Shown piece after piece: positions 919-28,872 of a stretch of DNA of 49,640 nucleotides. The notes below the pieces were generated by a model, which saw nothing but the letters and a program-made list of their open reading frames with translations, had not been told where the DNA came from and searched no databases. Both the position numbers and the translations under genes were made by a program. How positions within the stretch are numbered: the first letter of the stretch is position 1; each line of letters starts with the position of its first letter. Source of the DNA: an uncultured Leptolinea sp. (GTDB lineage Bacteria > Chloroflexota > Anaerolineae > Anaerolineales > Anaerolineaceae); contig CAZRKL010000002.1 of NCBI GenBank assembly GCA_964600595.1, forward strand, positions 3,111 to 52,750. Direction: 5' to 3'.

Positions 919-3723
919 CTAGCGGTTGAGCCATTTTTCCACTACACGCGGTAATTCGATGGATGACCCAATACGGGTGGTGCAGCGAGGAATTGAATCT
1001 AAGAATAGCTTACCATATTTCTTGGTGAGAATACGCTTATCCAGAATAACAACCACACCCCGGTCTGATTTGGTGCGGATCAACCTGCCAAATCCCTGGC
1101 GAAAACGCAGGATGGCTTCGGGCAGGTTGTACTCATTAAATGGATCATCAAATGTCTCACCACGGGCAGCAATAATTGGATCGGATGGAACATCGAATGG
1201 AATCTTGGTGATTGCCAGTACAGAGAGTGCCTGCCCGGGTACATCGATCCCCTCCCAAAAAGAACGGGTTCCCAGCAATACAGATTTTTCATTGCTCTTG
1301 AAACTTTCCAGTAAGCTGGCTGCCGAGGCACCTTCAGCCTGTTCGTATACGGTGATCCCTTTGTCAATTAAAAGTGGACTCAAGTAGGCTGAGGTTTGCT
1401 TCAATTGCGAATAACTGGTGAAAAGGGCAAGCAATCGTCCTTCGGTTGTTTTGCTTAACCGTAACAGGATGTTATTCAACTCCTGTTGATAGCTGGATCC
1501 CATGGTGGGTTCCGGGATGTCATTCACCAGATACAGCATGGCAGCATCTTCATAATCAAAGGGAGATCCTACGGCCAGCTCATCAGCATCCTCCGCTTCG
1601 AGCCTGCCACGGAAATATGAAAAATCACCGGCGGTGGTCAGGGTTGCAGAAGTGACGATGACAGAATTTTTTTGGTTCCAGAGATGCTGCCGCATCAAAG
1701 GTCCAATTTGTAAAGGCGCGGCGTTGAGGCTGATACGGCTGCCAGTATTATTCATCTCTACCCAGTACACCCGGTCGGATGCAGGATTGGACACCAACCC
1801 ATTCAGGTTCACCTGAATTTCAGAAAACCGGCGCAGCAGGGTGCCAATGGACCCCTGTGAATCGGTCAGGTCATCAGAATCAATTTCCTGGTGATCGCCA
1901 ATCCAGGTAAAAATGGCTGTAATCTGGCTGATCATTTGTTTAAGCGATGTATTCAGGTCATCCCATAAAATTTCCACCGCTGACCAATCTGGTTGCGTGC
2001 GGGTACCTGAAGTAATCCGAACCTGCTGGGAATAATTTACCGATCGCCCCGGGTTCTCCTGTATCTTAAGGAACTCTTCGATCTCCTTGAAGAAACCCTG
2101 TAACTGGCGCTGAACACGCGCGGCTGTGTCGGTTGCACCTTTGATTTCTTTTTCCATGTCAGCCAGATCACCCGGTGATACCACCCGATGAATGATATTC
2201 AGGAATCTGCCAAGGACCCCGCTGGAAGAACCCCCCAGCTCTTTCAGGATGCGCTCGATTTCAAGATAGGTAACGCGGAATGCCAGAGCGTTCGTAGTGG
2301 CATCTTCCAGATGGTGACCTTCATCCACAATCAGGTAATGGTATTCTGGCAGCACTCTGCTGCCCGTAGAGATGTCTGCCAGCAGCAGGGCGTGATTAAC
2401 CACAATCAGATGGGCAGATTGGGCTGCCTGATGCGCCTGATAATACGGGCAGGCGCCTCCGGTTCTCTTGATGCAGTTTTCGATCGAGCAGGCTTCATCG
2501 TCTGCTGAGAGTTTATTCCAGGCATCCCGTTCATCCGGACCGGTCAGGCTGATCTCCGTCCGGTCGCCGCTGCCACCCCGGCTCAGCCAGACCAACACCT
2601 TGGCGAGCACACGCATCTCTTCCAGTGATTCTGGCGGGCGCAAACGTGATGCTTCCAGACGCCGCGGGCAAAGGTAATTATTCTTTCCTTTTAATACACA
2701 TGCCTGTAGATCAAGACCCAATGCTTCCTTCAGGTCAGGAATATCTTTCTTAATTAATTGTTCCTGCAGGTTGATGGTATTGGTGGAAATAACCACCCGG
2801 GCGTTATTCTGCATCGCCCAGAAAGCGGCGGGTATCAGATACCCGTAAGATTTTCCAGTTCCAGTGGCTGCTTCCACAAGCAGATGCGCGCCAATATTAA
2901 AGGAATCTGCTACCTTGCGGAGCATCTCCACCTGCTGGGAGCGGTATTCAAAACCAGAAAAATGTTTCTGGAACGAACCGCCATTTTCAAGATGCGAAGC
3001 GATCAGTTCTATATCCAACGGCTGCATCTCATCACGCGGTTTAAGCGGTGCTTTGTATGAAGAAATCGCGAACAAACCTTCACTCGAACCGCTGCTCTTT
3101 TTGGGCAGGATCCCCTGACGTGCTTTGCGCCGGAAAGCCCACTCCATTGGTAGACGCGCGCCCCACTCAAATGGCTCGCTCAGACGAAGAATTTCTGACA
3201 ATAATTCTCCCGATAGCCCATACTCCGGATCAAGCATCTTGTTAAGCAATTTAAGGTAAACCTGAGCCGTCAGACGCGCATCGGTCAGGGCGCTGTGCAA
3301 ATCATCCGGCACCTCAATTCCCAATTCCATTGCCAGAGCACCGAGATTGTACCTTCGCGCATCTGGCAGGAGAATGGATGCCATCTCAAATGTGTCGATC
3401 CATTGGTGATCAAAAAATATACCGGCTTTTCGTAAAAAGCCCAGATCGAATTTAACATTCTGACCGAGTATGGGGGATTCTTCAACAAAAACCACCAACT
3501 CCGGCGCAAGCGCTTTCAAAGTGGGAGCATCCACGACATTCTCATTCTTGATCCCGGTCAGCTGGGTTATGAAAGGCGGAATCTGTCTGCCGGGATTGAC
3601 ATACGACTTCCACTCGTCCTGGATTCCATCTTCATTAAAGCGCACGGCGCCAATCTCAATTATGGCGTCGCGGCGTGGATCCAGACCGGTGGTTTCAACA
3701 TCTATTGCAACGATGGAAGGCAT
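919..3723 (-). CDS. dinG: bifunctional DnaQ-like 3'-5' exonuclease / DinG-family ATP-dependent helicase
   Basis: 934 aa. N-terminal DEDD exonuclease motif (VAIDVETTGL). Walker A (EAATGTGKS) and a DEGH box (IVDEGHHLE). Four Cys typical of the XPD/DinG Fe-S domain (NYLCP...CSIENC...GGACPYY). C-terminal helicase motifs (GTRSFWEGIDVPG). Confidence 0.85.
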   Translation of the reverse strand: MPSIVAIDVETTGLDPRRDAIIEIGAVRFNEDGIQDEWKSYVNPGRQIPPFITQLTGIKNENVVDAPTLKALAPELVVFVEESPILGQNVKFDLGFLRKAGIFFDHQWIDTFEMASILLPDARRYNLGALAMELGIEVPDDLHSALTDARLTAQVYLKLLNKMLDPEYGLSGELLSEILRLSEPFEWGARLPMEWAFRRKARQGILPKKSSGSSEGLFAISSYKAPLKPRDEMQPLDIELIASHLENGGSFQKHFSGFEYRSQQVEMLRKVADSFNIGAHLLVEAATGTGKSYGYLIPAAFWAMQNNARVVISTNTINLQEQLIKKDIPDLKEALGLDLQACVLKGKNNYLCPRRLEASRLRPPESLEEMRVLAKVLVWLSRGGSGDRTEISLTGPDERDAWNKLSADDEACSIENCIKRTGGACPYYQAHQAAQSAHLIVVNHALLLADISTGSRVLPEYHYLIVDEGHHLEDATTNALAFRVTYLEIERILKELGGSSSGVLGRFLNIIHRVVSPGDLADMEKEIKGATDTAARVQRQLQGFFKEIEEFLKIQENPGRSVNYSQQVRITSGTRTQPDWSAVEILWDDLNTSLKQMISQITAIFTWIGDHQEIDSDDLTDSQGSIGTLLRRFSEIQVNLNGLVSNPASDRVYWVEMNNTGSRISLNAAPLQIGPLMRQHLWNQKNSVIVTSATLTTAGDFSYFRGRLEAEDADELAVGSPFDYEDAAMLYLVNDIPEPTMGSSYQQELNNILLRLSKTTEGRLLALFTSYSQLKQTSAYLSPLLIDKGITVYEQAEGASAASLLESFKSNEKSVLLGTRSFWEGIDVPGQALSVLAITKIPFDVPSDPIIAARGETFDDPFNEYNLPEAILRFRQGFGRLIRTKSDRGVVVILDKRILTKKYGKLFLDSIPRCTTRIGSSIELPRVVEKWLNR

Positions 3724-3730
3724 GCGTTGA

Positions 3731-3768
3731 TTATACCAGCGGGCGGCTCCTGCCGCCCGCTGGTATAA
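3731..3768 (-). terminator. 17-bp perfect GC-rich stem-loop downstream of the VIT-vWA gene; its 3' arm forms an extended -10 (TGGTATAAT) for dinG
   Basis: ttataccagcgggcggc-tcct-gccgcccgctggtataa. There is no U-tract on the minus strand, so it is not a canonical intrinsic terminator. See the finding on a possible leaderless dinG. Confidence 0.45.
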
Positions 3769-3798
3769 GAAATTTAGGATATCTCACGTGAATTGTGA

Positions 3799-5991
3799 TT
3801 ACTCAATCACCTCAAACACCTGAACTCCACTTAAAATAATCACTCTGGGTCCCAGCGCCAGTCCGGCAGCCAGGTCTGCATCAGATTTTACCAACCTGAA
3901 GTATTCGTTAGAGAGGAATTTTATCTGCACCGGCTTATCTTCATCCGGGTCATAGCGGGTATCAATCCAGACACCGTCTTTTAGGACGAAAGTGCGTGAG
4001 CCCGCGGATTTTACCAGATCCAACACCGTTGGATCTTCTGTACCACCGCCACCACCTCCGCGTCCGTAAGCCCCACTCAAATTTTCGGCGGCACTCATAG
4101 CACCGGCATCCGCTGCCTTGTTCACCGCGCCAGCGCCACTCACCATTGTTGGCATGGCTGCCTGAACCGAAAACTCCTGTTCGGCAATTCGTTGTTGCGC
4201 TTCCTCACCCAGGGCATCTGGTTCAGTAACCAGGTATGAAGTGTAAGGAGTGACTATACCAAACCGGATTGATAAAGCAACGATTTGCGCTATTGTTTCC
4301 TTATCCGCGCCCTGCATCCGCACCTGGTTCAAGAGATTCCCAATCTTCCGGGCTGCCCAAATTCGCGAGAGATACGAAAGCTGTTCCGCTTCCGGCTCTG
4401 ACCCATCAGAGAAAATCACACCATCCACAACCTTTTCATAGGGGGTGTTGCCTTTCAAAGCGGTCAGTTTGATTTGCGCTGCGCCGGAGTTCCGGTATCT
4501 GCCGGTAATGATCAATTGTGACCCATAGAAAAGATCTGGCAGGGGAACCGGCTGAACATCATAGATGCCCGCTCCCTGCACCACCATGTTCAAATCTGTT
4601 AGAACCGGCGCGCTGATCTTTTGGTAAAAAGATGATATCGCCTCTTCAGCATCCTCACCCGGTCGGACATATGTGCTGCCGCCGTGATGATCCGATGCTA
4701 ATTGGTCGAGAAGGAATGTATCCACATCATACCCGACACCGAATGCAAACAGGCGGATGGATCTACCGGCGCTTTCCTGCACATTCTCCAGGATGCGGCT
4801 GGAATTGATCTCGCCGGTGGTCGGCAACCCATCTGTGAGAAAGATGACATAAGTCGGACGAGAGCCAGAATCCATTTTCAAACCGGTGAGGAGGGCATCC
4901 TGAATGTTTGTTGACCCACCCGGAGACACCCCATCCAGCCAGGCTTCTGCCATGGTGCGATTCTCAACCGGCTGCAAATAGGGGGCGAAAGTCTCGACAC
5001 CGGAAGAGAAAGTAACAATATTGAAATAATCATTCGGATTTAGGTGCTGGAGGATAAACCTGGCTGCCGAAATGGCTTGCCTGAATTTCTCCCCTTCCAT
5101 GCTGCCAGAGTGATCCAAAACCAATATCAAATTCTTGGGAAGGACATCCTCATCCAAAGCAACAGGCGGCGTGATCATCATCATAAAGTATCCATCTGGA
5201 TCGGCTGAATCGTTAAGGTTCCGATAAGTTAAGAGATGTATTCCCTCTTCTGTTCCCACCGAGTAATAGAGCAGAAAATCCTGATCCGGTTTTACCTGAG
5301 ATTCCTCATAGCTTGCCGTCCATTGATTGGGGTTTTTACTTGTTGCGCGGACGGGGTGTGAAGGGGAGTAAACATTGAGCACCGGGCTGGGAGACGTGAT
5401 CTCCACGGTGACCGATACACTCTCCAGCGGTTGATTGGAGAATTTCTCTGTATTCAGCGGATAGCGGTAGGCGACCAGCCCGTTTTCGGCAGTGAGCGCT
5501 TCGGTGTATTCCAGTTCAATGCGGCGTTCTTCTCCTGGCGCAATGGGGAAAATGCGAGCCATCACCGCGCCCCGGTCTGCATATTCAAGCAGCGCAGGAT
5601 CACGAAGTTCTCTTACAATTTGCTCGTATTCAGCGCGGGCGGCGTCGGCATCCAACACCCTGCCTTCCACGGGTTTTCCATCCACCCAGAGTTTGAAATT
5701 CGTAACCACCGCGCCGCGTGGAATTGGAAAAGTGTAAACGCCTTCCACGACCCAGTCGTTGGTGTTTTCGAAAACCTGATCCACCCGGGTTACAGCCACC
5801 TGGTCATTGATTTGAACAGAGACATGATGGTACTTAATATTCAAGGGTGTCATGTGCCAGGGCGGGCAGGGTTGCGGCCAGCACGCTGGCGGATCGGGGA
5901 TGATAATCCCATCCGCAGAAACACTGCTCAGGGGTAGAAATGCAGCAATCAAAACAAAAAATATGGTAAAGATCCAGGTTCTTCGCATCAT
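3799..5991 (-). CDS. secreted VIT domain / von Willebrand factor type A domain protein
   Basis: N-terminal signal-like helix (RRTWIFTIFFVLIAAFLPLSSVSA). VIT-like region (VSVQINDQVAVTRVDQVFEN). vWA MIDAS motif (LVLDHSGSM...GGSTNI...FLTDGLPT). ATG at 5991 sits behind GGAGGAGG; the ORF track begins at GTG 6003. Confidence 0.8.
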   Translation of the reverse strand: MMRRTWIFTIFFVLIAAFLPLSSVSADGIIIPDPPACWPQPCPPWHMTPLNIKYHHVSVQINDQVAVTRVDQVFENTNDWVVEGVYTFPIPRGAVVTNFKLWVDGKPVEGRVLDADAARAEYEQIVRELRDPALLEYADRGAVMARIFPIAPGEERRIELEYTEALTAENGLVAYRYPLNTEKFSNQPLESVSVTVEITSPSPVLNVYSPSHPVRATSKNPNQWTASYEESQVKPDQDFLLYYSVGTEEGIHLLTYRNLNDSADPDGYFMMMITPPVALDEDVLPKNLILVLDHSGSMEGEKFRQAISAARFILQHLNPNDYFNIVTFSSGVETFAPYLQPVENRTMAEAWLDGVSPGGSTNIQDALLTGLKMDSGSRPTYVIFLTDGLPTTGEINSSRILENVQESAGRSIRLFAFGVGYDVDTFLLDQLASDHHGGSTYVRPGEDAEEAISSFYQKISAPVLTDLNMVVQGAGIYDVQPVPLPDLFYGSQLIITGRYRNSGAAQIKLTALKGNTPYEKVVDGVIFSDGSEPEAEQLSYLSRIWAARKIGNLLNQVRMQGADKETIAQIVALSIRFGIVTPYTSYLVTEPDALGEEAQQRIAEQEFSVQAAMPTMVSGAGAVNKAADAGAMSAAENLSGAYGRGGGGGGTEDPTVLDLVKSAGSRTFVLKDGVWIDTRYDPDEDKPVQIKFLSNEYFRLVKSDADLAAGLALGPRVIILSGVQVFEVIE

Positions 5992-6018
5992 ATCCTCCTC
6001 CACTCATGTAACCTATAC

Positions 6019-6626: not shown

Positions 6627-8612
6627 CTATGGTTTCAGCATGTCATCCAGAATGCTTTTTACCTCGGCATCCTCTGGATGAAAACGGGAATAAGCAATAT
6701 AAGCACGCATTGAATATGCCAGGTCCAAATTTGCCTGCCATTCAGAGCCCTTTTCTTTTAATACATCCACCGGATTCTTCCCCAGATGCCGGGCAAGATG
6801 TTCCAGATTTGCCTGGAAATTTGGATTGGACGATTCCAGCAGAAATGCCCGGGCAGCATAATCAAGGGCTTTTTCATGGTTCCCCTGACGTGCCGCAATA
6901 AATGAGCGGATGCTCGCCTCAATGGGGTGATCTGCCTCAATCCTGCGTGCCATATCGAGCATATACTCGGCGTAATTATCGTGTCCTGATTGTGTCTGGC
7001 AGGTAGCCAGATCAAGTAGATCTGTAAACTCAAGCCCTGTTTTTGATGCTGCATTCAGTATTTCTTCAATTGCTTTGGACCATTGCTGGCTGGCAATCAG
7101 CATCTTTGCACGGGCACGAATAAGTTTGACATCATCCAGCAAGACATCTTGAGATTCTTTCAAGAACTTTTCGGGGTCGTTTTGTTCTAACAAGTGATGC
7201 AATTCGTTTTTTCGTTTAGCATCAAGTTTACGGTGATTAGGGAACTCAATTTGTGAATAATAATGCTTTGCCCTGCTTAGATCACCCAGAAGAACAGACA
7301 CCTCCACCAGTCTCCAGCGAATATTCTGAAGATTATAGATTGTTGGAGGGAGCATATCTTCAATCATATGCGTGGCTCTCCGTTCCTGAGCAATTGTCAG
7401 GATGAATAATGCTTCATCCAAGTCCTGTAATTCGTATAAAGCCAGCTCACCCGCAAATTGGAGCAAATGCGAATCAAAAGGAAAATCAATTACCAATCCA
7501 CGTACAATCCTCGCTACTTGTTCTCGATTCTTGCGTTGGAATTCACGATTCGCCAGATATAGATAAGCAGCGGCATGGTACTTGATAATGGGGGTATCAT
7601 CCGGCACATCAAAAACAATTTTTTCAAGGGCATTTAGAGCATTTTCTGGATCTGTATGACCCTGGCTGTTTAGTTTAATAAACTGCAAATACAGATCATC
7701 AGGGTTTTTTGCAAGTGCTTTCTCACAGATCGCAATATTTCTGGCTAATTTCTTATCGAGCTGATCAGCCTCAATATGATAACCTGTGTGAATAAACTTG
7801 ATGTTTGTTATCGCCTGGGTCAATCTCAATTTCGTTGCCGATGGTCCCACCGTTTCGTGCATGGGATACGTGTACTGGACGCCTAAATGATTACGGATTA
7901 AGCGGACATTTTCAACAATATTTTCTTTCCCATCAGGCATCAGACTGCAGGTCGGGCAGATATATATATCAGCGTTTCCACTATTTATTGCCTGCAGCAA
8001 CTTGGGTTTTTCAGAATCCTCAATATATTCATCCGCATCTGTTCTGAGAATCCAATCACAGGTCGCAAACTGCAGGCTGTAATTACGCGCTGCAGAAAAA
8101 TCATCGATCCAGGGAAAGTATTCCACCCTCGCCCCAAAGGATTTGGCAATTGCCACCGTGTCATCTGTAGAGCCGGTATCCACAACGATGATTTCGTCAA
8201 CCAGATCCTGATAAGATTTTAGACACTCAGGCAGGTTCTCTGATTCATTTTTGACGATCATTACGAGAGAGATCGTTTGCTTCTTCTTTGGTTTTATTTT
8301 TCCGTCGTACATGACGATAACAGAATTACTATTCACCTCACGGATCAGGTTTTCTAGTTCCTGATAGGCTTTCATATCTCCTGGAGAAAAGTAGATGGCT
8401 TTTAAGTACAGGTATCTTGCCTCGCGTAATTTACCTTGGCTAACTTTACATTTCGCGGCAAGATGAAATACCTCAGCATTGGGCAAATCCGCATCCAGGT
8501 ATGTCTGGAGTGTAGTCAGAGCTTCACTATAGGCAGCCTCTCTTAATAAAGCCTTTGCCTCACGAATTGCGTTTTGGATGGATGGGTTGGATTTTTGGAT
8601 GCTTTGATTCAT
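6627..8612 (-). CDS. family-2 glycosyltransferase flanked by TPR repeats (TPR-GT2-TPR)
   Basis: GT2 core: ISLVMIVKNESENLPECL...EIIVVDTGSTDDT...WIDDFSAARN...RTDADEY (DxD). TPR-like helices lie on both sides. The start is uncertain (ATG 8612 versus GTG 8714). Confidence 0.75.
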   Translation of the reverse strand: MNQSIQKSNPSIQNAIREAKALLREAAYSEALTTLQTYLDADLPNAEVFHLAAKCKVSQGKLREARYLYLKAIYFSPGDMKAYQELENLIREVNSNSVIVMYDGKIKPKKKQTISLVMIVKNESENLPECLKSYQDLVDEIIVVDTGSTDDTVAIAKSFGARVEYFPWIDDFSAARNYSLQFATCDWILRTDADEYIEDSEKPKLLQAINSGNADIYICPTCSLMPDGKENIVENVRLIRNHLGVQYTYPMHETVGPSATKLRLTQAITNIKFIHTGYHIEADQLDKKLARNIAICEKALAKNPDDLYLQFIKLNSQGHTDPENALNALEKIVFDVPDDTPIIKYHAAAYLYLANREFQRKNREQVARIVRGLVIDFPFDSHLLQFAGELALYELQDLDEALFILTIAQERRATHMIEDMLPPTIYNLQNIRWRLVEVSVLLGDLSRAKHYYSQIEFPNHRKLDAKRKNELHHLLEQNDPEKFLKESQDVLLDDVKLIRARAKMLIASQQWSKAIEEILNAASKTGLEFTDLLDLATCQTQSGHDNYAEYMLDMARRIEADHPIEASIRSFIAARQGNHEKALDYAARAFLLESSNPNFQANLEHLARHLGKNPVDVLKEKGSEWQANLDLAYSMRAYIAYSRFHPEDAEVKSILDDMLKP

Positions 8613-9096
8613 TCGGTAAAATATCACTTTCGTGTGCCAGTTTACAACAATTACCAGTATAGAAAGTTGGATCAAATTATCCAGTAAAGTAGAGCTGAAA
8701 GCAGCATTAACCACGCGTAAAGAAAAAACAGGATTACTGAATTCGATATCTCCTCCTTTCCAGGGAAAGACAGCAATATTAATACAAATATTCCATTCAA
8801 GTTATTTGAAGTATTTGTGCCAGATCGATTATCAAGATATCTAAATATCCACATTCTTTACCCATAAATATTTACGCAATTTTTATGCACCTAAAGACTT
8901 AAGAATCCTTCAGGCGAGACGACAACAGAATAAGACAAAACAGACCTAATGGAAAACCAGTTGAGGAGGTTGTTATCGAAAGAAAATAACAAATACAGCA
9001 GGAAGTCCACCATCGGTCGGTGACGTTGGGAAAAGGGCAAAACCCGGCGCACAAAAAATCTCAAAGATGCCTACGAAAACATTTTTCATAAACCAA

Positions 9097-9136: not shown

Positions 9137-10399
9137 ATGGCTGATAATGATGTAACTCGAATTGCTGGTAATATCGGCGCTATGAATGCGCTGAACGCGT
9201 TAACCGTGATCAACAAACAGCTCTCTGTTCACCAGTCCCGGTTAGCGTCTGGTAAACGCATCAACTCCGCTGCAGATGATCCCGCTGGTCTGACAATCGC
9301 GACCAAAATGATGGCGCGCAGCGAAGGCTTGAAACAGGCTTACAGCAATATTGGTGATGCCAAGAACCTGCTCGCCGTTGCAGAATCCGGTCTGGGCAGA
9401 ATTAATGAAATTCTTGTTCAAATGCGCAACAAGGCGGAAGCCGGCGCTTCTGACACCATGGGAACCAATGAACGACAGGCTTTGGTTGATCAGATGGTTG
9501 CTTACGCCAAACAGATTGACGATGTAGTTGCCCAAACCAAATGGACAAGCTCCAGCCCGAGTTTGATCGGTGGTGATTATTTTAGTGTCGCAAACGCACT
9601 GACCTTCCAGACTGGTGTAGACCAGGGCGAAACCACCACCCTGAGTGGTCTGGCAAACATGAGCGCCAGCAATGTTGGTACCGGTGCTTCACTAGACATT
9701 GCTCAAGCTGAAGCATCTTCAAGATTAGCCACGAATGTTAGCGGTATCATTTCAACATCTGCAGCAGGAGCTCCATCCAACGCTAATCTGAGCGAACTCA
9801 CCAGCGGCACCTACCGAGTGGAAGTCAACTATGGTACTGGTGGCACTGCAGCGCAAGTATCATTATTCCTAAATGGTTCCAGCGTCCCCGTCATGGTTGA
9901 CGCAGATAATTTGGGAACAACCGAAGCGATCAACACCTTCGCAGTTGTTGACTTGAGCACTGTTGCAAAAGCTGTTGACTTTGGTAATGGTCTGACCGTC
10001 ACCGTAGCTAACGGCACCTCCGGAACTGGTTCTGGTACAGTGGATTACACCCAGGCAAGCACTGATTACAAATTGAAACTCTCTGCAGGTGTATTCCTTA
10101 CGAAAAACTCCTCTGCGGCAGATTTTGCTCAGTATATGTCAAACATCAATGACAAACTGGATACAGTATCCGGTCAACTTGCGCAAATCGGCGCCATGAA
10201 CGGCCGCCTGACCTTCAAAGAAGATCAGATCTCTGCCGCTCAGATCAACGTCGAAGGCGCTTACAACCGAATTATGAACGCCAACATGGCCGAGGAACAG
10301 GTGAACGCTTCCAAATTCCTGATCCTGCAGCAAACCGCTACCGCGATGCTGTCACAGGCCAACGCTGCACCGCAATTCCTGCTCTCCCTCTTCCGGTAA
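9137..10399 (+). CDS. fliC: flagellin
   Basis: Conserved N-terminal region (LSVHQSRLASGKRINSAADDPAGLTIATKM) and C-terminal region (GAMNGRLTF...EGAYNRIMNANMAEEQVNASKFLILQQTATAMLSQANAAPQFLLSLFR). The central region is Ser/Thr/Gly-rich and variable. Confidence 0.95.
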   Translation: MADNDVTRIAGNIGAMNALNALTVINKQLSVHQSRLASGKRINSAADDPAGLTIATKMMARSEGLKQAYSNIGDAKNLLAVAESGLGRINEILVQMRNKAEAGASDTMGTNERQALVDQMVAYAKQIDDVVAQTKWTSSSPSLIGGDYFSVANALTFQTGVDQGETTTLSGLANMSASNVGTGASLDIAQAEASSRLATNVSGIISTSAAGAPSNANLSELTSGTYRVEVNYGTGGTAAQVSLFLNGSSVPVMVDADNLGTTEAINTFAVVDLSTVAKAVDFGNGLTVTVANGTSGTGSGTVDYTQASTDYKLKLSAGVFLTKNSSAADFAQYMSNINDKLDTVSGQLAQIGAMNGRLTFKEDQISAAQINVEGAYNRIMNANMAEEQVNASKFLILQQTATAMLSQANAAPQFLLSLFR

Positions 10400-10507: not shown

Positions 10508-12217
10508 ATGGCAAACACAATCGGGCAACTAGACTCTTCCTTCACAAATCTCATCAGTAATTTGATGACGCTGGAACGCCAGCCGTTGTTGGGTTTAAAC
10601 ACCAAACGTGACACACTCAATGTGAAAAAGGCTGTCTACACCGATCTCAAGGATAAAGTCGATGCCCTTCAGGCTGCCGTCCGTACTCTGAAACCCAGTG
10701 ATGCATTCTTCAGTCTCAACCCGGGTCGAAAAGTCAGTGTATCATCCAATACCACCGGCTCCACCATCGCCACCGCAGCCGCCGGTTCCGCATCTGTGCC
10801 AGGCACCTACACCATCAGCGAGGTTACCCTGGCGAAGGCGCACAGTGTTATGTCTGGCCGCATGGCTTATACAGACCAGGCGCTGGGCTACACAGGCGCA
10901 ATCCGCATGGGCGGATACGAGGCCAGAGCGGTGGCTGCATCCTCAACCAATACGGTCGTAGATGGGATCACAACCGCTGCTTCAATCATCGCAGGTCAGC
11001 AAGAGCTCGGAACAGGCAGCTACTTCATTGAGACCCGCGAATTGGATGGTGTGCAGCAATTCCGCATGGTCGATGAAAACGGGAAAGCAGTAGCCATCCG
11101 CAATGGCAGCACATCCAGCGTCACCGCCAACTGGCAGGCGCTCCCAACCGCCGGTGAATTCGATACCGGACGTGGACTGGTATTAAACTTTACTGGTACA
11201 TTCTCAGCCCACATGAAAGGCAGTGGAGCTGCCAGCGTGGAGTATCACGCGCAAGGCGCCTCCATTGACATTGCCGCTACTGACACCCTGGTCGAAATCG
11301 CCTCAAAAATCAACAACGCAAGCTACGCAGCCGGAAACGAAGTACTGGCGAATATTATCGACAATCAATTGATCCTGACTGCCAAGAACAGTGGAGCCGG
11401 GAAAGAGATCGTAGCCAGCGGAACTGTTCTTGAAAACCTGGGAATCTTGAATGAAGGCGTTTACACCAACATTCGATCCATAGCAGCCAATGCATCCTTC
11501 AAAGTGAATGGCATGAATGTCACCCGCAGTTCCAATACCGGGTTGACCGATGTTATCCAGGGCGTGACATTGAACCTTTCCAGTGACGCGGAGGGTGCAG
11601 GGAAAGTGGCAACCATTAACATCACCGGTGACACTTCCACACAGAAATCTGCACTTCAGGATTTCTTGACCAAATTCAATGGTCTGCAGACCTACATCAC
11701 GCAAAAGATGGCTGTGACCAAGAAAGCAGATGGTACGTACGAGCGCGCAACACTGGCTGGCGATTCGATGTTATCCAGTCTCAAGATGGATCTTGGACGG
11801 ATGATGACAACATCGTACACCAATGCTGGCACATTCACCAATCTGCGCCAGATCGGCATTACGATGAATGAAACTGGACAGATGACCATCAGTGACAGCT
11901 CAAAGTTGGATAATCTGCTCGCATCTGATTTCAACAATGTAAAGCTCCTACTGGATGCAGTGATGACGGGAGCCCTTAATAAGATCAACCGCTTCTCAGG
12001 AACCAGCAGCTACGTGGATACTGCCATTAAAGCTGTGGAAAGAGAAGCCGATAATGTAGGAAAACAGATAACCACCATGAATGAACGGTTGGCAAAGAAA
12101 GAATCGCAGTTGTTCGATCAATTCGCAGCTGCCCAGTCTACACTGGAATCTCTCTCGTACCAGCAGCAAACAATCGCAGCGGGAATGAGTTATCTGTCAA
12201 GCATCAATTATGGTTAA
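10508..12217 (+). CDS. fliD: flagellar filament capping protein FliD
   Basis: N-terminus LISNLMTLERQPLLGL; motifs PGTYTISEVTLAKAH and FKVNGMNVTRSSNTGLTDVIQGVTLNL; C-terminal coiled coil (ERLAKKESQLFDQFAAAQSTLESL). Confidence 0.9.
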   Translation: MANTIGQLDSSFTNLISNLMTLERQPLLGLNTKRDTLNVKKAVYTDLKDKVDALQAAVRTLKPSDAFFSLNPGRKVSVSSNTTGSTIATAAAGSASVPGTYTISEVTLAKAHSVMSGRMAYTDQALGYTGAIRMGGYEARAVAASSTNTVVDGITTAASIIAGQQELGTGSYFIETRELDGVQQFRMVDENGKAVAIRNGSTSSVTANWQALPTAGEFDTGRGLVLNFTGTFSAHMKGSGAASVEYHAQGASIDIAATDTLVEIASKINNASYAAGNEVLANIIDNQLILTAKNSGAGKEIVASGTVLENLGILNEGVYTNIRSIAANASFKVNGMNVTRSSNTGLTDVIQGVTLNLSSDAEGAGKVATINITGDTSTQKSALQDFLTKFNGLQTYITQKMAVTKKADGTYERATLAGDSMLSSLKMDLGRMMTTSYTNAGTFTNLRQIGITMNETGQMTISDSSKLDNLLASDFNNVKLLLDAVMTGALNKINRFSGTSSYVDTAIKAVEREADNVGKQITTMNERLAKKESQLFDQFAAAQSTLESLSYQQQTIAAGMSYLSSINYG

Positions 12218-20354: not shown

Positions 20355-21692
20355 ATGAGCGAACTAATTCAGTGTCCAATCATCTCCTCGCCGCCCTCGC
20401 CTCCGCCAGCATCCCGTCCGGCTAATACTGCCGTTCGAGATGGCAACAATTTTGAAGATGTCTTGAAGGCTCAAATGGAATCTGACAAATCCTCAGAAAC
20501 ATCCAATGAGACGAATACCACATCTACAAATTCAAGTGTGAAGGCGGTGAGAACTGATTCACAATCCAAAGCAAATCAAGGAGAAAACATATCGAATCTT
20601 AACAATGAAAAAGATGAAACAGAACAGGTATTAAAAGTCACCCCTGCCGCCATTGAGGTCAATGCTGATATCGCATATATCGCCCAACCCGTTCAGATAA
20701 TCGCTGAGCAACCTCAAGCCGTTCAGGTTAATATTGTTGAAACAGGTATGCAAAATCCTGATGTAGCGGTTATTGAGGGAGATGCTGTAGCAGCAACAGC
20801 TACTTTGCCAACACAAATTTCTTCTCCGGTAAGTAGCCCGGCGAAAGAAACATCCTCACCCGAGATTCTGAATGCCCAGAATGTTGCGCTGCAACAAGTA
20901 TCAAAAACAATCGAAGATTCCAGCGCAGTGGATGTTCAAGAGAGCAGCCCCAATGGAAGCTTTATCCAGAAGGATGACGGAAAAGTTAGTAGTACCTCCG
21001 CTCGGAACGAACAGGCTGTTGAGGCGTCAGTAAAAGCGCCTGGTCAAGCTGCATCTGAGACAAATACTGATAAACCGACCCCTGGTCAAAACAAAGTAGC
21101 AGTAAAAGCTGAACCAGGGCAGATAGCGGAGACTACGGTAAAGAGTGTCGAGGTTTCTGCGGATAAACCTCCGCAGGTACAGGCTCCTCCCGGAGAATCA
21201 CCTGGGAGAATGGTTGGCGGGGTTGCGACCACACAAGTGGAAAACCCGGTTAACCAAGCCATCGAGCCGGACCGCCTGGCGGAAGCTCAGACAACAAACA
21301 TCATCGGACAAATTGCCCGACAGATGGAAAAACTGACGCAGACAGGCAGGCAAACCCTCCGCATTCAATTGTATCCCCACGAATTAGGGCATATCGATCT
21401 TAAGATCACCACCACATCACAGGGTGTCGGTGTAACGATGCTGGCTGATAATCCGGTGACAGGTAAACTGCTGGAAGGCCAGATGGCTCAATTACGCCAA
21501 AACCTTACCGATGCAGGGATCCAGATCGCGAATATGCAAATCGGAACTCAATCGAACCAGCAATCCAATCAGGGTACGTTTCAAAACCCCAACCAAACTC
21601 CGGCACGATATACAGCACCAACTGTATCTTCTGAGGTTACAGGGGGAGAACCTGCTCGTCTGATTGAATCGTTGATCGATTACAAAATATAA
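20355..21692 (+). CDS. fliK: flagellar hook-length control protein FliK
   Basis: Long Ser/Thr/Pro/Gln-rich ruler region, then a Flg_hook-type domain (LRIQLYPHELGHIDLKITTTSQGVGVTMLADNPVTGKLLEGQMAQLRQNLTDAGIQ). Confidence 0.75.
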   Translation: MSELIQCPIISSPPSPPPASRPANTAVRDGNNFEDVLKAQMESDKSSETSNETNTTSTNSSVKAVRTDSQSKANQGENISNLNNEKDETEQVLKVTPAAIEVNADIAYIAQPVQIIAEQPQAVQVNIVETGMQNPDVAVIEGDAVAATATLPTQISSPVSSPAKETSSPEILNAQNVALQQVSKTIEDSSAVDVQESSPNGSFIQKDDGKVSSTSARNEQAVEASVKAPGQAASETNTDKPTPGQNKVAVKAEPGQIAETTVKSVEVSADKPPQVQAPPGESPGRMVGGVATTQVENPVNQAIEPDRLAEAQTTNIIGQIARQMEKLTQTGRQTLRIQLYPHELGHIDLKITTTSQGVGVTMLADNPVTGKLLEGQMAQLRQNLTDAGIQIANMQIGTQSNQQSNQGTFQNPNQTPARYTAPTVSSEVTGGEPARLIESLIDYKI

Positions 21693-23894: not shown

Positions 23895-23926
23895 CGGGCG
23901 GTTGATCATGGATGATCAACCGCCCG
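23895..23926 (+). repeat. 32-nt near-perfect palindrome (15-bp arms, 2-nt centre) just after flgE
   Basis: cgggcggttgatcat-gg-atgatcaaccgcccg. The 3' arm contains the ATG (23912) of the next ORF. Confidence 0.7.
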
Positions 23927-25297
23927 GAACTGGTTATCATGTTCACCATACCTGGACCCCCACCTGTTTCTCCTGTACAACACCCTGATGAAGGGAGTTT
24001 ATTCCTTCGGGTTAATCAACGGGTTGCCGGAGAAGTTTTGAAGGTAGGCAATGAACAAGTAATCCTTTCGATCCAGGGCGTGCAAGTGGTCGCCCGGTTG
24101 ACAAATCCCGAACAACTAACAGCACTCATCGACAGGCGTTTTGCCCAGTTCCTGGTCAAAGATATGAGCAACCAGGTAGTGACACTTCAGCTACTTGAGC
24201 TTCCAACCCAGCAGAGCGCTGCTGAAGTGGCTACTACAAACCGAGAAGCTCTTCTATTAAAAGGTTTACTTAACCAAATTGGTTTACCCGCCACACCAGA
24301 AAACCAGATCCTTGCCCAGGCTGTTATCCGGCAGGGATTGCCGGTGACAGCAGAAGTTCTTCAGGACCTCAGAAGAGTCCTTGAAGGAATTCAACCCTGG
24401 GGGGAAACCGAAGCGAATTTAGCTGTACTGTTGAAATCACATCAGGTGCCGGTCAGTCCTGAAACACTTCGGTTACTGGCAAATTCACCCGCCGAAGTAA
24501 CCCAGGCATTCGCAAAACTGGTCCAGCAGCTGGGACAATTACAACAAGACGGCTCCATTTCGTCCAGCATGCGGGCGCAAATTAGCCAGGTTTTGAATGT
24601 TTTTTCGCAGGCGATCATCATAGGAGATCAGCCAGCTGAGGTGATGATTGCCCGGTTGAAAAACGCGGTGAGCCTGCTTGGGAAATCGCTCGAAGGAGAG
24701 TTGGCAAATCTTATAAACACAGATGTAACCGATCTGGAACGTGGATTGCTGGCGCTTACCAGGCTGCGGACTGAGTTGGCCGCTCGTGGATACAATGCAC
24801 TTGCCAGTGATATTGACAGTTTCAATGATCATTTACGCCTTGTCCATCTGTTCAATTCCGGCGGGAACGAGGGCAAAAAGAACGAATGGATCCGTCTGGA
24901 ACTGCCTGTGCAATTTCCGGTTCAGGGCAAAGCAGATTATGAAGAAGAATTGCACCCTGCCCGGATTCGCATCGCCCGGGATCAGTCTGCTGAAGGTATT
25001 GAAAATGTTAATCCACATTACACCCGCATAATTGTCCAAGTGGACCTTTCGCATGACAAAAGTATTGAGGTGGATTTATCGGTAGTCTCCCATCAACTCG
25101 GTCTAACCATCACAGGTACTGATTCTGACATCAGTCAGGCAGCATCGAGTGAATTGGAATCGCTGAAAGAAAACTTGAAATCACTGGGTTTTGAAACCAG
25201 ATATGCTCAAGTGGAAACGGGAACAGCGATATCCGGTGAAACGACCTCAGCGGTAACTTCCAACCTCACCAAATCTGATGTAAATCTGGAGGTTTGA
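23912..25297 (+). CDS. FliK-like protein (second hook-length-control-type paralogue); function unknown
   Basis: N-terminus VAGEVLKVGNEQVILSIQGVQVVARL. Helical repeats LLNQIGLPATPENQILAQAVIRQGLPVTAEVLQDL. The C-terminus IIVQVDLSHDKSIEVDLSVVSHQLGLTITGTDSDISQAASSELESLKENLKSLGFE resembles a Flg_hook domain. Start uncertain (23912 or 23939). Confidence 0.5.
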   Translation: MINRPELVIMFTIPGPPPVSPVQHPDEGSLFLRVNQRVAGEVLKVGNEQVILSIQGVQVVARLTNPEQLTALIDRRFAQFLVKDMSNQVVTLQLLELPTQQSAAEVATTNREALLLKGLLNQIGLPATPENQILAQAVIRQGLPVTAEVLQDLRRVLEGIQPWGETEANLAVLLKSHQVPVSPETLRLLANSPAEVTQAFAKLVQQLGQLQQDGSISSSMRAQISQVLNVFSQAIIIGDQPAEVMIARLKNAVSLLGKSLEGELANLINTDVTDLERGLLALTRLRTELAARGYNALASDIDSFNDHLRLVHLFNSGGNEGKKNEWIRLELPVQFPVQGKADYEEELHPARIRIARDQSAEGIENVNPHYTRIIVQVDLSHDKSIEVDLSVVSHQLGLTITGTDSDISQAASSELESLKENLKSLGFETRYAQVETGTAISGETTSAVTSNLTKSDVNLEV

Positions 25298-25299
25298 GG

Positions 25300-25587
25300 A
25301 TGACAGATTACACTCCAGATCGTAAAAATAAAAACAGACAAACAGCCACAGCGATCGGTTACAACCCCGATACTGACGCGGCGCCAATTGTTCTGGCATC
25401 TGGGCATGGTAAAATTGCAGAACAAATTATGTCGATTGCCAGAGCCAATCAAATTCCCATGCATGAAGATGCATTATTGGCAGAAACCCTGGCTAAGATA
25501 AATATTAACCAGGCAATTCCACCAGAACTATACCTTGTAATTGCGCAAATATTTGCTTATATTCAAAGAGTCAGAGATCATCTATAA
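25300..25587 (+). CDS. stand-alone FlhB C-terminal-domain-like protein (EscU/YscU/FlhB switch-domain family, YlqH-like)
   Basis: TATAIGYNPDTDAAPIVLASGHGKIAEQIMSIARANQIPMHEDALLAETL...IPPELYLVIAQIFAYI aligns to the FlhB region that begins at the NPTH cleavage site. ATG 25300 follows GGAGG. Confidence 0.75.
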   Translation: MTDYTPDRKNKNRQTATAIGYNPDTDAAPIVLASGHGKIAEQIMSIARANQIPMHEDALLAETLAKININQAIPPELYLVIAQIFAYIQRVRDHL

Positions 25588-25946: not shown

Positions 25947-26211
25947 CCACGTTATCGGTTGTATCATCAGAATTGGTTGCGAGTAATTCCCGCAATTCTT
26001 TAAAAGAATCTGGTTCAGGGCTGGTTGCAAGAAATTGCTCCAGCTTATTTTGTTCCTGAACAGCCTGGAAAATTTCTTTGCGAAGTATCGTGATTTCGCG
26101 AGGCGCTTTAATACCTATCTTAACCTTGTCCCCCTCTATGGCAAGAACCGTCACCTCTATAGAATCACCAATGTTCAGGCTTTCATCTACGCGCCTTGTT
26201 AATACAAGCAT
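25906..26211 (-). CDS. csrA: carbon storage regulator CsrA with an extended C-terminal tail
   Basis: [56 protein letters not shown], then a ~45-aa acidic tail. Directly downstream of flgL. Confidence 0.9.
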
Positions 26212-27132: not shown

Positions 27133-28872
27133 TTATCTGCCCACAATACCCATACCATTAATAATGGTGTTCATCATCTCATCAATTACTGTCATCAATC
27201 GGGCAGATGCTTCAAAAGCCTTCTGAGCTTTAATGAGATTCGCCGCTTCTTCATTCAGGTTGACACCCGAAATGGATTGACGCTGTTGGTCAATAACATT
27301 TGCCACGGTCAGACGATCAGCGGCATTTGTTTTTGCCCTGCGGATATCCACTCCGAACCTGGCGGTTTGTGCGGTATAAAACTGATTTATGGTGCTTAAC
27401 CCGCCACTCATCAAACTCTCAGTTCGGACATTTGCCAGGGCGCGAGCCAAATCCCCGTTACCGGGTTGGTTGGGAGCAGTAGCAGTTGCCAGTAAATTCG
27501 GGTTGGCCAGCAGTGTTGAATTTATTGCAATGGTCAAGGCATCGGTACCAGTAAAGAACTCTTGCTGCTCATAGAACTGAACTGAAGCGGCACCTGTCGT
27601 GTAACTGTTTTCTGTATAAAGGCTTACATCACCACCAAACTGCATGGTAATTCCGCGACCTGTATCATATGCTACCGGCAATCCGCCAGCAGTGGGAATA
27701 TCCTGCCAATCGTTACTATACCCGCTAAGATCTGAAAGCTGAATACTTACCGGGTTCCCTGTGGAATCAACCATCCTGAACTGCCAGGTGCCCGCATCAA
27801 GCCGGGTTTCAACAAAATAATTACCCGAAGCAAGTTCAGTTTGCCCAACAGCCAGAACTCCTGCCTGGATGGATTGAATGGTGTCGTTGCTAACAAGTGT
27901 GTTGGTTTTGCCCGGTGCATATCCGCTAAGATGTAAGGCATTCACCCGGGAGATGATCGTGCCAGAAAGGTCATTTAAAGCCAGCATCTGATCGCCCAGA
28001 ACACCATCTCTGGCGCTGAATAATCCAGCCAATTCCCCAGAAGATGGATTGAAGCTCTGACCATCGCTCCACCGTACAGCAAATAAATTCGGATTCACTG
28101 GATCGGGTTGGGTTTGCAACCCAAATGGAGTAACGCCTTGAACCAATACATGCCCATTAATTGAAACAATAACATCACCGGCAGACTGCAATGCTGAAGT
28201 TGCGCCACTCAGCTTCGCGAGTTCATCCAGTATGACATCCCGTTGATCCATTAGATCATTTGGCTGTTCACCAATGGATACCACACGCATAATTTCCCCA
28301 TTTAATCTGGCAACTTGTTCTGCCAGTTGGTTAATGCTATCTACCCGTTGTGATATCTGAAGGTTTTGATCTGCCTGAACTGTTCTTATGTTTAACGCTC
28401 GATATTGAATGGATTGAGTAAGTGTATTTGCTACATCCACTAATTCTGCTTTTAGAGCAGAGTTGCTTGGATCAGCGCTCAACCGCTGCCAACCAGCCCA
28501 GAATTCATCCAGCTTATTCAGTAACCCATTGGTTGAAGTCTCAGAGAATTCTGCTTCAATTTGTGAGAGGATTGACGCTTGAAGACCGAACTGAGCAGAA
28601 GACTGAATTTCTGACCGGTAACGCATATCATAAAAATCGGTGCTGAAACGGCGGATTTTATCTACCACAACACCGGTACCTATTTGCCCCACGCCCACAT
28701 TGTAAGAAGCACCTGGAGAAGAAACAGCCGGACCGGATTTTAACACCGCTTCCTGGCGTTTATAGCCAGGTGTGTTTACGTTGGCTACGTTATGCTCAAT
28801 CACCTGCACGGATGCCTGATGACTGAGTATTGATTGTAAGGCTAAACTAACTCCTGCGAATAAATTCGGCAT
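27133..28872 (-). CDS. flgK: flagellar hook-associated protein 1, FlgK
   Basis: LQSILSHQASVQVIEHNVANVNTPGYKRQEA...; C-terminus VNLNEEAANLIKAQKAFEASARLMTVIDEMMNTII. Confidence 0.9.
   Translation of the reverse strand: MPNLFAGVSLALQSILSHQASVQVIEHNVANVNTPGYKRQEAVLKSGPAVSSPGASYNVGVGQIGTGVVVDKIRRFSTDFYDMRYRSEIQSSAQFGLQASILSQIEAEFSETSTNGLLNKLDEFWAGWQRLSADPSNSALKAELVDVANTLTQSIQYRALNIRTVQADQNLQISQRVDSINQLAEQVARLNGEIMRVVSIGEQPNDLMDQRDVILDELAKLSGATSALQSAGDVIVSINGHVLVQGVTPFGLQTQPDPVNPNLFAVRWSDGQSFNPSSGELAGLFSARDGVLGDQMLALNDLSGTIISRVNALHLSGYAPGKTNTLVSNDTIQSIQAGVLAVGQTELASGNYFVETRLDAGTWQFRMVDSTGNPVSIQLSDLSGYSNDWQDIPTAGGLPVAYDTGRGITMQFGGDVSLYTENSYTTGAASVQFYEQQEFFTGTDALTIAINSTLLANPNLLATATAPNQPGNGDLARALANVRTESLMSGGLSTINQFYTAQTARFGVDIRRAKTNAADRLTVANVIDQQRQSISGVNLNEEAANLIKAQKAFEASARLMTVIDEMMNTIINGMGIVGR

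What the first reader, a model, noticed from the sequence alone, without database searches (positions are those of the whole stretch)
10991..11254. A ~90-aa module is shared by the filament cap FliD and the hook-filament junction protein FlgK
**The alignment.** FliD residues 163-249 read GQQELGTGSYFIETRELDGVQQFRMVDENGKAVAIRNGSTSSVTANWQALPTAG..DTGRGLVLNF...GAASVEYHAQ. FlgK residues 343-436 (nt 27565-27849, minus strand) read GQTELASGNYFVETRLDAGTWQFRMVDSTGNPVSIQLSDLSGYSNDWQDIPTAG....DTGRGITMQF...GAASVQFYEQ.

**Strength.** By hand count, 27 of the first 54 positions are identical with no gap. Shared DTGRG and GAASV(E/Q)(Y/F) blocks follow.

**Why it matters.** FliD and FlgK belong to different families and normally resemble each other only in their terminal helices. 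The two copies use different codons, so this is not recent gene conversion. The same presumably surface-exposed insert therefore sits in the proteins at both ends of the filament. I am not aware that such a shared module has been described.
Basis: seen in the sequence. Interest (0 to 1): 0.7.

Follow-up and report, generated by a model that had tools for sequence, protein, structure and literature searches.

The report
Mobile outer domain shared by flagellar proteins

Summary
FliD (10508-12217, +) residues about 147-249 and FlgK (27133-28872, -) residues about 328-436 align at 40% identity (BLASTP E=8e-22; z=30 against shuffles). Nucleotide identity is only 48.5%, so this is not recent gene conversion.

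The segment is a discrete insertion, not part of the canonical domain set. Close orthologues lack exactly it: a 471-aa FlgK (L018) and a 479-aa FliD (L021). Pfam and NCBIfam have no model for it. No solved structure matches its confident AlphaFold model (pLDDT 92.8, all-beta).

An exhaustive profile search found 156 representative proteins (E<=1e-3). Most are FliDs, some with tandem copies. The rest are about a dozen FlgKs, four FlgE hook proteins, flagellins, giant FG-GAP surface proteins and one ABC permease.

The window's own flagellin holds a third, diverged copy (hhalign 95.9%, E=5e-9).

A second FlgK clade carries the module together with the FliD-specific segment that follows it. FliD is therefore the likely donor, with at least two transfers.

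Function is inferred, not shown. I favour a surface-displayed, possibly ligand-binding decoration.

This is a new domain family within a known phenomenon, the variable outer domains of flagellar axial proteins. Interest is moderate.

The parts
10508..12217 (+). fliD, filament cap protein (569 aa), host of module copy 1
   Evidence: Pfam FliD_N 13-112 and FliD_C 326-548, plus a weak Flagellin_IN match at 249-294. NCBIfam FliD models also match.
10898..11254 (+). Module copy 1 in FliD.
   Evidence: BLASTP E=8e-22 to FlgK. Profile score 129.8 bits. The segment is absent from the orthologous 479-aa FliD of L021. The E. coli-type FliD profile resumes at residue 252. The AlphaFold model of aa 147-266 has pLDDT 92.8 and is all-beta.
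27133..28872 (-). flgK, hook-filament junction protein 1 (579 aa), host of module copy 2
   Evidence: Pfam FlgK_D1 102-318 and Flg_bbr_C 529-572. TIGR02492 scores 289.8 bits, above its cutoff. It aligns to Salmonella FlgK 9go6 over residues 11-319 and 476-572 only.
27562..27897 (-). Module copy 2 in FlgK.
   Evidence: Profile score 123.5 bits. The segment is absent as one clean gap from the 471-aa FlgK of L018/L019, whose flanks are 46-50% identical to the window protein.
9137..10399 (+). Flagellin gene (420 aa), host of a diverged third copy
   Evidence: Pfam Flagellin_N 11-135 and Flagellin_C 335-419.
9779..10063 (+). Diverged module copy 3 in the flagellin central (outer) region, aa 215-309
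   Evidence: The module profile scores 20 bits over HMM positions 9-113. Profile-profile comparison of the module alignment A2 with the flagellin-centre alignment A4 gives probability 95.9%, E=5e-9 over 89 columns. BLASTP of the centre hits the module regions of P0002, P0116 and P0074 in register. Pairwise comparison to the window's FliD and FlgK copies is not significant, so this copy rests on profiles only.

Best explanation
**What it is (shown).** The segment is a self-contained all-beta domain of about 100-115 residues. It has no Pfam or NCBIfam family, and neither sequence search nor Foldseek finds a solved relative. It behaves as an insertion cassette in the outward-facing loops of flagellar axial proteins.

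- In FliD it is inserted within the FliD head region, just upstream of the IN-motif segment; by general knowledge this is head domain D3, which was not verified here.
- In FlgK it fills the slot between the D1 helices that holds the D2/D3 outer domains in other bacteria.
- In the flagellin a degenerate copy forms the central outer region.

**How it got there (inferred from comparison).** FliD is the main and probably original flagellar host. The cassette was copied from fliD into flgK by non-homologous recombination at least twice, with different boundaries. In the window's clade only the module moved. In another clade the module moved together with the adjoining FliD segment that carries the IN motif. 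The window's transfer is old: 40% amino-acid and 48.5% nucleotide identity.

**How it works (inferred, not shown).** Axial proteins are exported unfolded and polymerise through their D0/D1 helices. An inserted domain therefore folds on the outside, and orthologues that lack it show it is not part of the conserved core. I propose it is a displayed functional surface: five copies at the tip on the FliD cap, eleven at the junction on FlgK, and a decayed version along the filament. It most likely binds a ligand, in the manner of an adhesin or carbohydrate-binding module. The reasons are:

- A strongly conserved polar and aromatic motif set (ELxxGxYxVETR, WQFRLVD, W, DTGRG) is kept in FliD, FlgK, FlgE and giant FG-GAP surface proteins.
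- That motif set has decayed in the flagellin copy, which evidently still folds.
For: - **Similarity:** E=8e-22 and z=30.
- **No known family:** no Pfam or NCBIfam model and no significant PDB hit by sequence or by fold.
- **Confident model:** pLDDT 92.8, pTM 0.81.
- **Clean presence/absence indels** in close orthologues of both proteins.
- **Insertion slots:**
  - The E. coli-type FliD profile (positions 141-454) maps to residues 252-550.
  - The Bdellovibrio FliD D2-D3 structure 6kty aligns to 93-157 and 321-364.
  - Salmonella FlgK aligns to 11-319 and 476-572.
- **Distribution:** 156 representative proteins. About 95 are FliD, some with tandem copies. About 12 are FlgK. FlgE, flagellins, giant FG-GAP proteins and an ABC permease make up the rest.
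- **FliD as donor:**
  - FliD is by far the commonest host.
  - The window's FlgK module clade nests among FliD modules in a neighbour-joining tree.
  - FlgKs P0124, P0129, P0112 and P0130 carry the module followed by a segment 39-52% identical to the post-module region of FliDs, with E down to 1e-10.
  - The FlgK copy ends in the FliD-like strand GAASVxF/Y.
- **Third copy** in the flagellin: 95.9%, E=5e-9.
- **Taxonomy:** Anaerolineae genome loci plus one Planctomycetaceae giant protein.
Against: - Function is entirely inferred. No ligand, structure or phenotype is available.
- The hints of a carbohydrate-binding module are below significance: the hyaluronate-lyase chain 4d0q (which I take from memory to be a carbohydrate-binding module) at E=0.066 and PF18099 at E=0.053 on the flagellin copy. 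Foldseek returned no carbohydrate-binding modules.
- The tree is neighbour-joining without bootstrap on a 123-column alignment. The polyphyly of FlgK copies is therefore suggestive only.
- All FlgK copies occupy the same slot. One old insertion followed by losses and a later deletion of the D3 segment cannot be excluded.
- The conserved motif could simply stabilise the fold.
- Surface exposure is inferred by analogy with solved flagella of other phyla. It has not been seen in this organism.
Confidence: 0.7

Rival explanations
1. The module is a structural reinforcement domain. Copies on neighbouring subunits contact each other (quasi-homotypic contacts) and stiffen the cap plate, the junction ring and the filament outer layer. 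It would have no ligand of its own. [quoted passage not shown]
For: - Hong 2018 proposes D2-mediated junction reinforcement and D2-D2 quasi-homotypic contacts.
- The only flagellar leads for the fold are FlgL D2 domains: xcFlgL 5ziz at E=0.11 by profile and lpFlgL 5yti at TM 0.41 by Foldseek.
- Homologous domains sit on three successive parts of the same flagellum.
- Tandem copies occur in some FliD and FlgE proteins.
Against: - FlgL (296 aa) and FlgE (411 aa) of this window have no module. The FlgK ring would therefore have no like neighbours in the adjacent layers.
- Relatives combine module-bearing FliD with module-free flagellin (L005, L006) or module-free FlgK (L018). No coupled set is required.
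- The same domain occurs in non-polymerising giant FG-GAP proteins and an ABC permease.
- The resemblance to FlgL D2 is below significance.
Confidence: 0.3
2. FliD and FlgK each acquired the module independently from a third source, for example a giant surface-protein gene or another genome, rather than FlgK receiving it from fliD.
For: - The module is present in giant FG-GAP proteins, at least one of them from a different phylum (Planctomycetaceae, L008).
- Several giant-protein copies branch near the base of the neighbour-joining tree.
Against: - The window's FlgK copy nests inside FliD copies and ends with the FliD-type GAASV strand.
- Another FlgK clade carries FliD-specific flanking sequence next to the module. 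This is hard to explain without a fliD donor.
- FliD hosts outnumber all others.
Confidence: 0.12
3. The segment is just the lineage-specific form of a canonical head or D2 domain inherited vertically from the common ancestor of the axial proteins, and not an insertion.
For: Fold-level similarity between FliD head domains and FlgK or FliC domains is established in Proteobacteria.
Against: - Identity is 40% in the module, against no detectable similarity elsewhere between the two proteins.
- Orthologues with 46-50% identical flanks lack the segment cleanly.
- Foldseek does not match the model to any solved FliD, FlgK or FliC domain.
- FliD keeps its ordinary IN-motif segment next to the module.
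Confidence: 0.04
4. The similarity is an artefact: a chimeric metagenome assembly or low-complexity resemblance.
For: The closest relatives of the window are metagenome-assembled genomes.
Against: - The two copies differ at half their nucleotides and are in frame.
- Both architectures recur in independent assemblies: FlgK in P0013 and P0005, FliD in L001-L007 and many others.
- z=30 against composition-preserving shuffles.
Confidence: 0.01

Closest known systems
D2 beta-sandwich accessory domain of junction proteins FlgL and FlgK (X. campestris FlgL 5ZIZ, L. pneumophila FlgL 5YTI, B. pseudomallei FlgK 4UT1), and the similar head domain 1 of P. aeruginosa FliD
   Same: It is a small all-beta accessory domain inserted into the helical D1 scaffold and exposed on the outside. 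It is dispensable in some species and shared between different axial proteins. These domains give the only flagellar leads for the module: E=0.11 by profile and TM 0.41 by Foldseek.
   Different: Those domains resemble each other only in fold, at 14-17% identity. Here the copies are 40% identical in sequence and form a recognisable family. The resemblance of the module to them is not significant. In FliD the module is additional to the normal head region rather than one of its canonical domains.
Hypervariable outer domains (D2/D3 and beyond) of flagellins
   Same: They occupy the central region of an axial protein, vary in presence and size between relatives, and are surface-exposed and tolerant of insertion or replacement. 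The window's flagellin centre is a diverged member of the family. It differs sharply (68% aa identity) from that of a relative that is 93% identical in nucleotide sequence.
   Different: The family described here is centred on FliD, not flagellin. It crosses protein-family boundaries (FliD, FlgK, FlgE, flagellin) and occurs outside flagella.
Flagellin_IN motif (Pfam PF07196), a short motif shared by flagellins and FliD
   Same: It is a sequence element known to recur in several flagellar outer regions. It lies immediately C-terminal to the module in FliD (249-294) and travelled with the module into one FlgK clade.
   Different: The module itself (FliD 147-249) is not covered by PF07196 or any other model. 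The window's FlgK copy has no IN motif.
Extra D4/D5 domains of Helicobacter and Campylobacter FliD, and extra domains of their FlgK and FlgE (from my own knowledge, not tested here)
   Same: They are lineage-specific additional outer domains on the cap, junction and hook proteins of one organism.
   Different: Foldseek against the PDB, which I assume includes those structures (their presence in the library was not verified), gave no match to them. No sequence relationship between their domains across proteins has been reported, to my knowledge.

Membership tests
FliD filament cap protein (host protein) | N-terminal and C-terminal FliD regions (PF02465, PF07195) | tested here: met
   FliD_N E=1.7e-13 and FliD_C E=1.7e-34, both above the gathering score.
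FlgK hook-associated protein 1 (host protein) | FlgK ends and D1 helical domain (TIGR02492, PF22638, PF06429) | tested here: met
   TIGR02492 scores 289.8 bits against a cutoff of 170.75. FlgK_D1 E=4.1e-51. Gene order is flgM-flgN-flgK-flgL-csrA.
Canonical FliD head domains D2/D3 | The segment is present in all FliD homologues and matches solved FliD head structures. | tested here: not met
   The orthologue L021 FliD lacks aa 131-246. FliD profiles skip the segment. No FliD chain appears among the Foldseek hits.
Canonical FlgK D2/D3 domains | Sequence or fold match to the outer domains of solved FlgK (2D4Y/9GO6, 4UT1, 5XBJ, 9GSX) | tested here: not met
   Solved FlgKs align only to the flanks. 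The module plus flanks finds no FlgK in PDB sequences. No FlgK appears among the 50 Foldseek hits listed. L018 FlgK has an empty slot.
FlgL/FlgK-type D2 beta-sandwich | Sandwich of 3 plus 5 strands that superposes on xcFlgL or bpFlgK D2 | tested here: inconclusive
   Profile against 5ziz gives E=0.11 over 48 residues. Foldseek against 5yti gives TMq 0.41, probability 0.28.
Flagellin_IN motif (PF07196) | Match to the IN-motif profile within the segment | tested here: not met
   The excised modules have no Pfam hit at E<=10. The IN match in FliD is at 249-294, after the module, and scores 21.5 bits, below the 22.7 gathering score.
Carbohydrate-binding module or galactose-binding-like jelly roll | Significant profile or fold match to a carbohydrate-binding module family | tested here: inconclusive
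   Only sub-threshold hints: the hyaluronate lyase chain 4d0q at E=0.066 and CBM_35_2 at E=0.053 on the flagellin copy. No carbohydrate-binding module appears among the 50 Foldseek hits listed.
New module family (defined here) | Match to the iterated module profile with the motifs ELxxGxYxVETR, WQFR(L/M)VD, W and DTGRG | tested here: met
   FliD scores 129.8 bits and FlgK 123.5 bits. Nearly invariant columns are listed. The flagellin copy matches only at profile level and has lost most of the motifs.

The most novel reading that the evidence does not exclude
The module is a previously unrecognised fold and domain family that bacteria use as a portable, ligand-binding 'tip and junction adhesin'. 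It would have been moved repeatedly by recombination between fliD, flgK, flgE, flagellin genes and giant adhesin genes. The flagellum of Anaerolineae would then double as an adhesive organelle whose binding specificity is carried by one exchangeable cassette.
Probability: 0.2. Interest if true: 0.65.

Novelty: new member of a known kind. Interest (0 to 1): 0.45.

Why it matters
- **Sequence-level evidence for domain exchange.** It shows that outer domains of flagellar axial proteins are exchanged between different protein families (cap, junction, hook, filament) and with non-flagellar surface proteins. Until now the resemblance between FliD, FlgK, FlgL and FliC outer domains was known only as low-identity fold similarity.
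- **A new domain family.** It defines a family that deserves a Pfam entry, which would improve annotation of about 150 protein clusters, mostly from uncultured Chloroflexota.
- **A natural experiment.** Orthologues with and without the cassette allow a test of what outer domains on the cap and junction actually do.
- **An engineering lead.** It marks permissive insertion sites in FliD and FlgK that could be used for surface display.

Tried and rejected
- **The search for homologous proteins returned nothing, twice.** I queried it with the FliD module alone and with the 50-sequence module alignment. Yet the exhaustive representative search found 156 relatives, and the listing of cluster members confirms these proteins are in the collection. 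I treated the word-index tool as blind to this family and did not use the third search.
- **Single-sequence AlphaFold of whole FliD was useless** (pLDDT 37). It cost one of the two structure jobs.
- The 50-sequence and 8-sequence alignments were rejected because they contain no conserved 7-10-column stretch. The 2-sequence alignment worked, but its patterns are biased towards close relatives. The taxonomic range (Anaerolineae plus one Planctomycetaceae) is therefore a lower bound.
- **Foldseek gave nothing significant** against the PDB or the viral BFVD library. No AlphaFold DB library was available.
- **Two ideas about canonical domains were rejected.** I considered that the module is the Flagellin_IN motif or the canonical D3. 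The Pfam coordinates and the L021 indel rule this out.
- **Similarity to B. pseudomallei FlgK D2 was rejected.** A long HMMER envelope suggested it, but the module plus flanks finds no FlgK in the PDB.
- **Direct pairwise similarity of the flagellin centre is not significant.** Compared with the window's FliD and FlgK modules, z is about 1.2. Only profile-level evidence supports that copy.
- **The listing of cluster members gave no taxonomy**.
- **A strict coupling rule was rejected.** I tested whether the module must be present in FliD, FlgK and flagellin together. L005 and L006 (FliD only), L018 (FlgK without it) and L021 (neither FliD nor flagellin) rule this out.
Full report
**Observation**

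The window carries a complete flagellar gene cluster.
- The ORF at 10508-12217 (+, 569 aa) is FliD, with Pfam FliD_N and FliD_C.
- The ORF at 27133-28872 (-, 579 aa) is FlgK. It matches FlgK_D1 and Flg_bbr_C, and TIGR02492 scores 289.8 bits against a cutoff of 170.75.

BLASTP of the two proteins gives one significant alignment. FliD 131-249 aligns with FlgK 312-436 at 52/130 identical (40%), E=8e-22. All other segments have E>=0.16.

The local alignment score is 197 against 30.9 +/- 5.5 for 2000 shuffles, so z=30.

At the DNA level the copies are 48.5% identical. Only 13 of 42 conserved residues share a codon. This is old homology, not gene conversion.

**A discrete insertion, not part of the canonical proteins**

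No Pfam or NCBIfam model touches the segment, even at E<=10.

In FliD the segment lies between FliD_N (13-112) and a weak Flagellin_IN match (249-294).
- The E. coli-type FliD profile aligns its positions 141-454 to residues 252-550.
- The Bdellovibrio D2-D3 crystal sequence aligns to 93-157 and 321-364.
- About 100 residues are therefore extra, inside the head region.

In FlgK, Salmonella FlgK aligns to 11-319 and 476-572 only.

I then fetched 80 metagenome loci anchored on the FliI ATPase. This anchor brings in the neighbouring fliD and flgK regardless of whether they carry the module.
- A 471-aa FlgK (L018 and L019, FliI 71% identical) aligns collinearly with the window's FlgK at 46-50% identity on both sides. 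It has one clean gap covering residues 326-437.
- A 479-aa FliD (L021) likewise lacks residues 131-246. It goes straight from 'LGLSGS' to the IN-motif strand 'FQLNGVQIDVAVGDSL'.
- Across all 89 fetched loci (L001-L008 were themselves selected by a module pattern), 12 of 13 FliDs carry the module but only 1 of 5 FlgKs does; among the FliI-anchored loci alone, 5 of 6 FliDs and none of the FlgKs carry it.

**Distribution**

The exhaustive HMMER search of 1.84 billion representative proteins with the two-sequence profile found 156 hits at E<=1e-3 and 98 at E<=1e-10. I classified them with the window's flanking regions and with Pfam:

| Host | Clusters or examples | Notes |
|---|---|---|
| FliD | about 95 clusters | Module at about 150-270; several with two tandem copies |
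| FlgK | about 12 | |
| FlgE (hook) | P0007, P0067, P0117, P0126 | P0007 has two copies |
| Flagellin-type proteins | several | |
| Giant proteins, up to about 7000 aa | examples: P0071, P0098, P0054, P0114 | The four Pfam-scanned carry FG-GAP repeats |
| ABC-transporter permease | P0121 | |

A pattern scan of one genome per GTDB species found seven FliD loci, all in Anaerolineae (Chloroflexota). One is an uncultured Leptolinea that is 98% identical in the module and 93% identical in nucleotides over 6.4 kb. The scan also found one giant protein in a Planctomycetaceae genome. The search pattern was narrow, so this range is a lower bound.

**A third copy in the window**

- The iterated module profile hits the flagellin (9137-10399) over nearly its whole length, but at only 20 bits.
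- Pairwise comparison with the FliD and FlgK copies is not significant.
- An alignment of the central regions of this flagellin and six orthologues (A4) matches the 50-sequence module alignment (A2) in hhalign at probability 95.9%, E=5e-9 over 89 columns.
- BLASTP of the flagellin centre hits the module regions of a FliD and two flagellins in register.

The flagellin copy keeps ELxSGTY, DFGNGL and VxYT. It has lost WQFR, the second tryptophan and DTGRG.

**Structure**

AlphaFold2 with the 50-sequence alignment gives a confident model of FliD 147-266. Mean pLDDT is 92.8 and pTM is 0.81. The model has about eight beta strands and then the first helix of the IN motif.

Foldseek found no match at E<=0.001 in the PDB or BFVD. 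The profile found no solved relative by sequence. The only flagellar leads are sub-threshold:
- X. campestris FlgL D2 (5ziz) at E=0.11.
- L. pneumophila FlgL (5yti) at TM 0.41.

Weak hints of a carbohydrate-binding module are also sub-threshold: a hyaluronate-lyase chain, 4d0q (to my knowledge a carbohydrate-binding module), at E=0.066, and CBM_35_2 at E=0.053 on the flagellin copy.

**Direction and number of transfers**

All FlgK copies occupy the same slot, after '...vnxLHxxGY' and before 'FFxGxxA'. Position alone therefore cannot count the events. Three observations point to fliD as the donor, more than once.
1. FliD is the overwhelmingly commonest host.
2. In a neighbour-joining tree the window's FlgK clade (with P0005 and P0013) nests among FliD copies, and other FlgK clades sit elsewhere. 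The tree has no bootstrap, so this is suggestive only.
3. FlgKs P0124, P0129, P0112 and P0130 carry the module followed by a segment 39-52% identical (E down to 1e-10) to the post-module IN-motif region of FliDs. The window's clade carries the module alone, ending in the FliD-like strand GAASVxF/Y.

**Mechanism**

Shown:
- The cassette is a real domain family.
- It lies in the outer-domain slots.
- Orthologues of both proteins exist without it.
- It is mobile between protein families.

Inferred: axial proteins polymerise through D0/D1, so the module should fold on the outside of the cap (5 copies), the junction (11 copies) and, in decayed form, the filament.

I favour a displayed ligand-binding role, for three reasons.
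- The conserved polar and aromatic motif set is retained across flagellar and non-flagellar hosts.
- That motif set is lost in the flagellin copy, which evidently still folds.
- From general knowledge, FliD acts as an adhesin in several pathogens.

The main rival is structural reinforcement by quasi-homotypic contacts, as proposed for FlgL and FlgK D2 domains (Hong 2018). Two findings count against it here. FlgL and FlgE in this window have no module. Relatives also mix module-bearing and module-free partners freely.

**Comparison with what is known**

Fold-level similarity between FliD head domains and FlgK or FliC domains (Postel 2016), and between FlgL and FlgK D2 (Hong 2018), is established. 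So is the variability of outer domains.

What is new here:
- A specific, uncatalogued family with clear sequence homology across FliD, FlgK, FlgE and flagellin.
- Its occurrence outside flagella.
- Indel and flank evidence for cassette transfer.

Full-text searches found no description of it. I rate it a new member of a known kind, of moderate interest.

Noticed in passing
window 6627-8714 (-), compared with L001: A 695-aa TPR plus GT2 glycosyltransferase gene lies divergently upstream of the flagellin gene. It is missing from the otherwise 93%-identical Leptolinea contig L001, where 252 bp replace 2240 bp. A flagellin with a strong module copy elsewhere (L090, L091) and the FlgK locus L009 also sit next to large glycosyltransferase, sulfotransferase or methyltransferase genes. 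This suggests variable glycosylation of the flagellar surface.
   Followed up: partly
window 9587-10141 (flagellin centre) compared with L001 2643-3185: The flagellin central domain is only 68% identical in amino acids between the window and L001. The FliD module is 98% identical and the surrounding DNA 93% identical. The filament outer domain therefore appears to be diversifying much faster than the cap copy.
   Followed up: partly
window 23912-25297 (+) and 20355-21692 (+): There are two FliK-like genes. The 445-aa ORF has a clear Flg_hook domain (E=2e-17). A 461-aa ORF directly after flgE has only a faint Flg_hook match (E=0.0017) and no other family.
   Followed up: no
window 25294-25587 (+): A stand-alone 97-aa protein matches only the C-terminal part of FlhB (Bac_export_2 positions 261-335). 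It is separate from the full export-gate genes further right in the cluster.
   Followed up: no
window 25906-26211 (-) and 25611-25946 (+): CsrA (101 aa) has a C-terminal extension of about 45 residues. It follows flgL, and no FliW gene was recognised next to it. The overlapping 111-aa ORF on the other strand has no family.
   Followed up: no
L054 19453-21291 (FlgK, 613 aa): A relative's FlgK fills the same slot with a different, unrelated insert of about 140 residues that contains an IN-like motif (DSASAIAGKIQTALN). The slot is therefore a general landing site for outer domains.
   Followed up: partly
P0121 (464 aa) and P0007 (620 aa), from the representative search: The module also occurs N-terminal to an ABC-transporter permease domain (BPD_transp_1, 273-453), and as two tandem copies inside a FlgE hook protein.
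   Followed up: no
window 919-6003 (-): Left of the flagellar cluster lie a DinG-like exonuclease-helicase fusion (934 aa) and a VIT-VWA protein (734 aa). They appear unrelated to the finding.
   Followed up: no
tool behaviour: The word-indexed protein search returned no hit for this family, even though the same proteins are in its collection and the exhaustive search finds 156. Negative results from that index should not be read as absence.
   Followed up: yes
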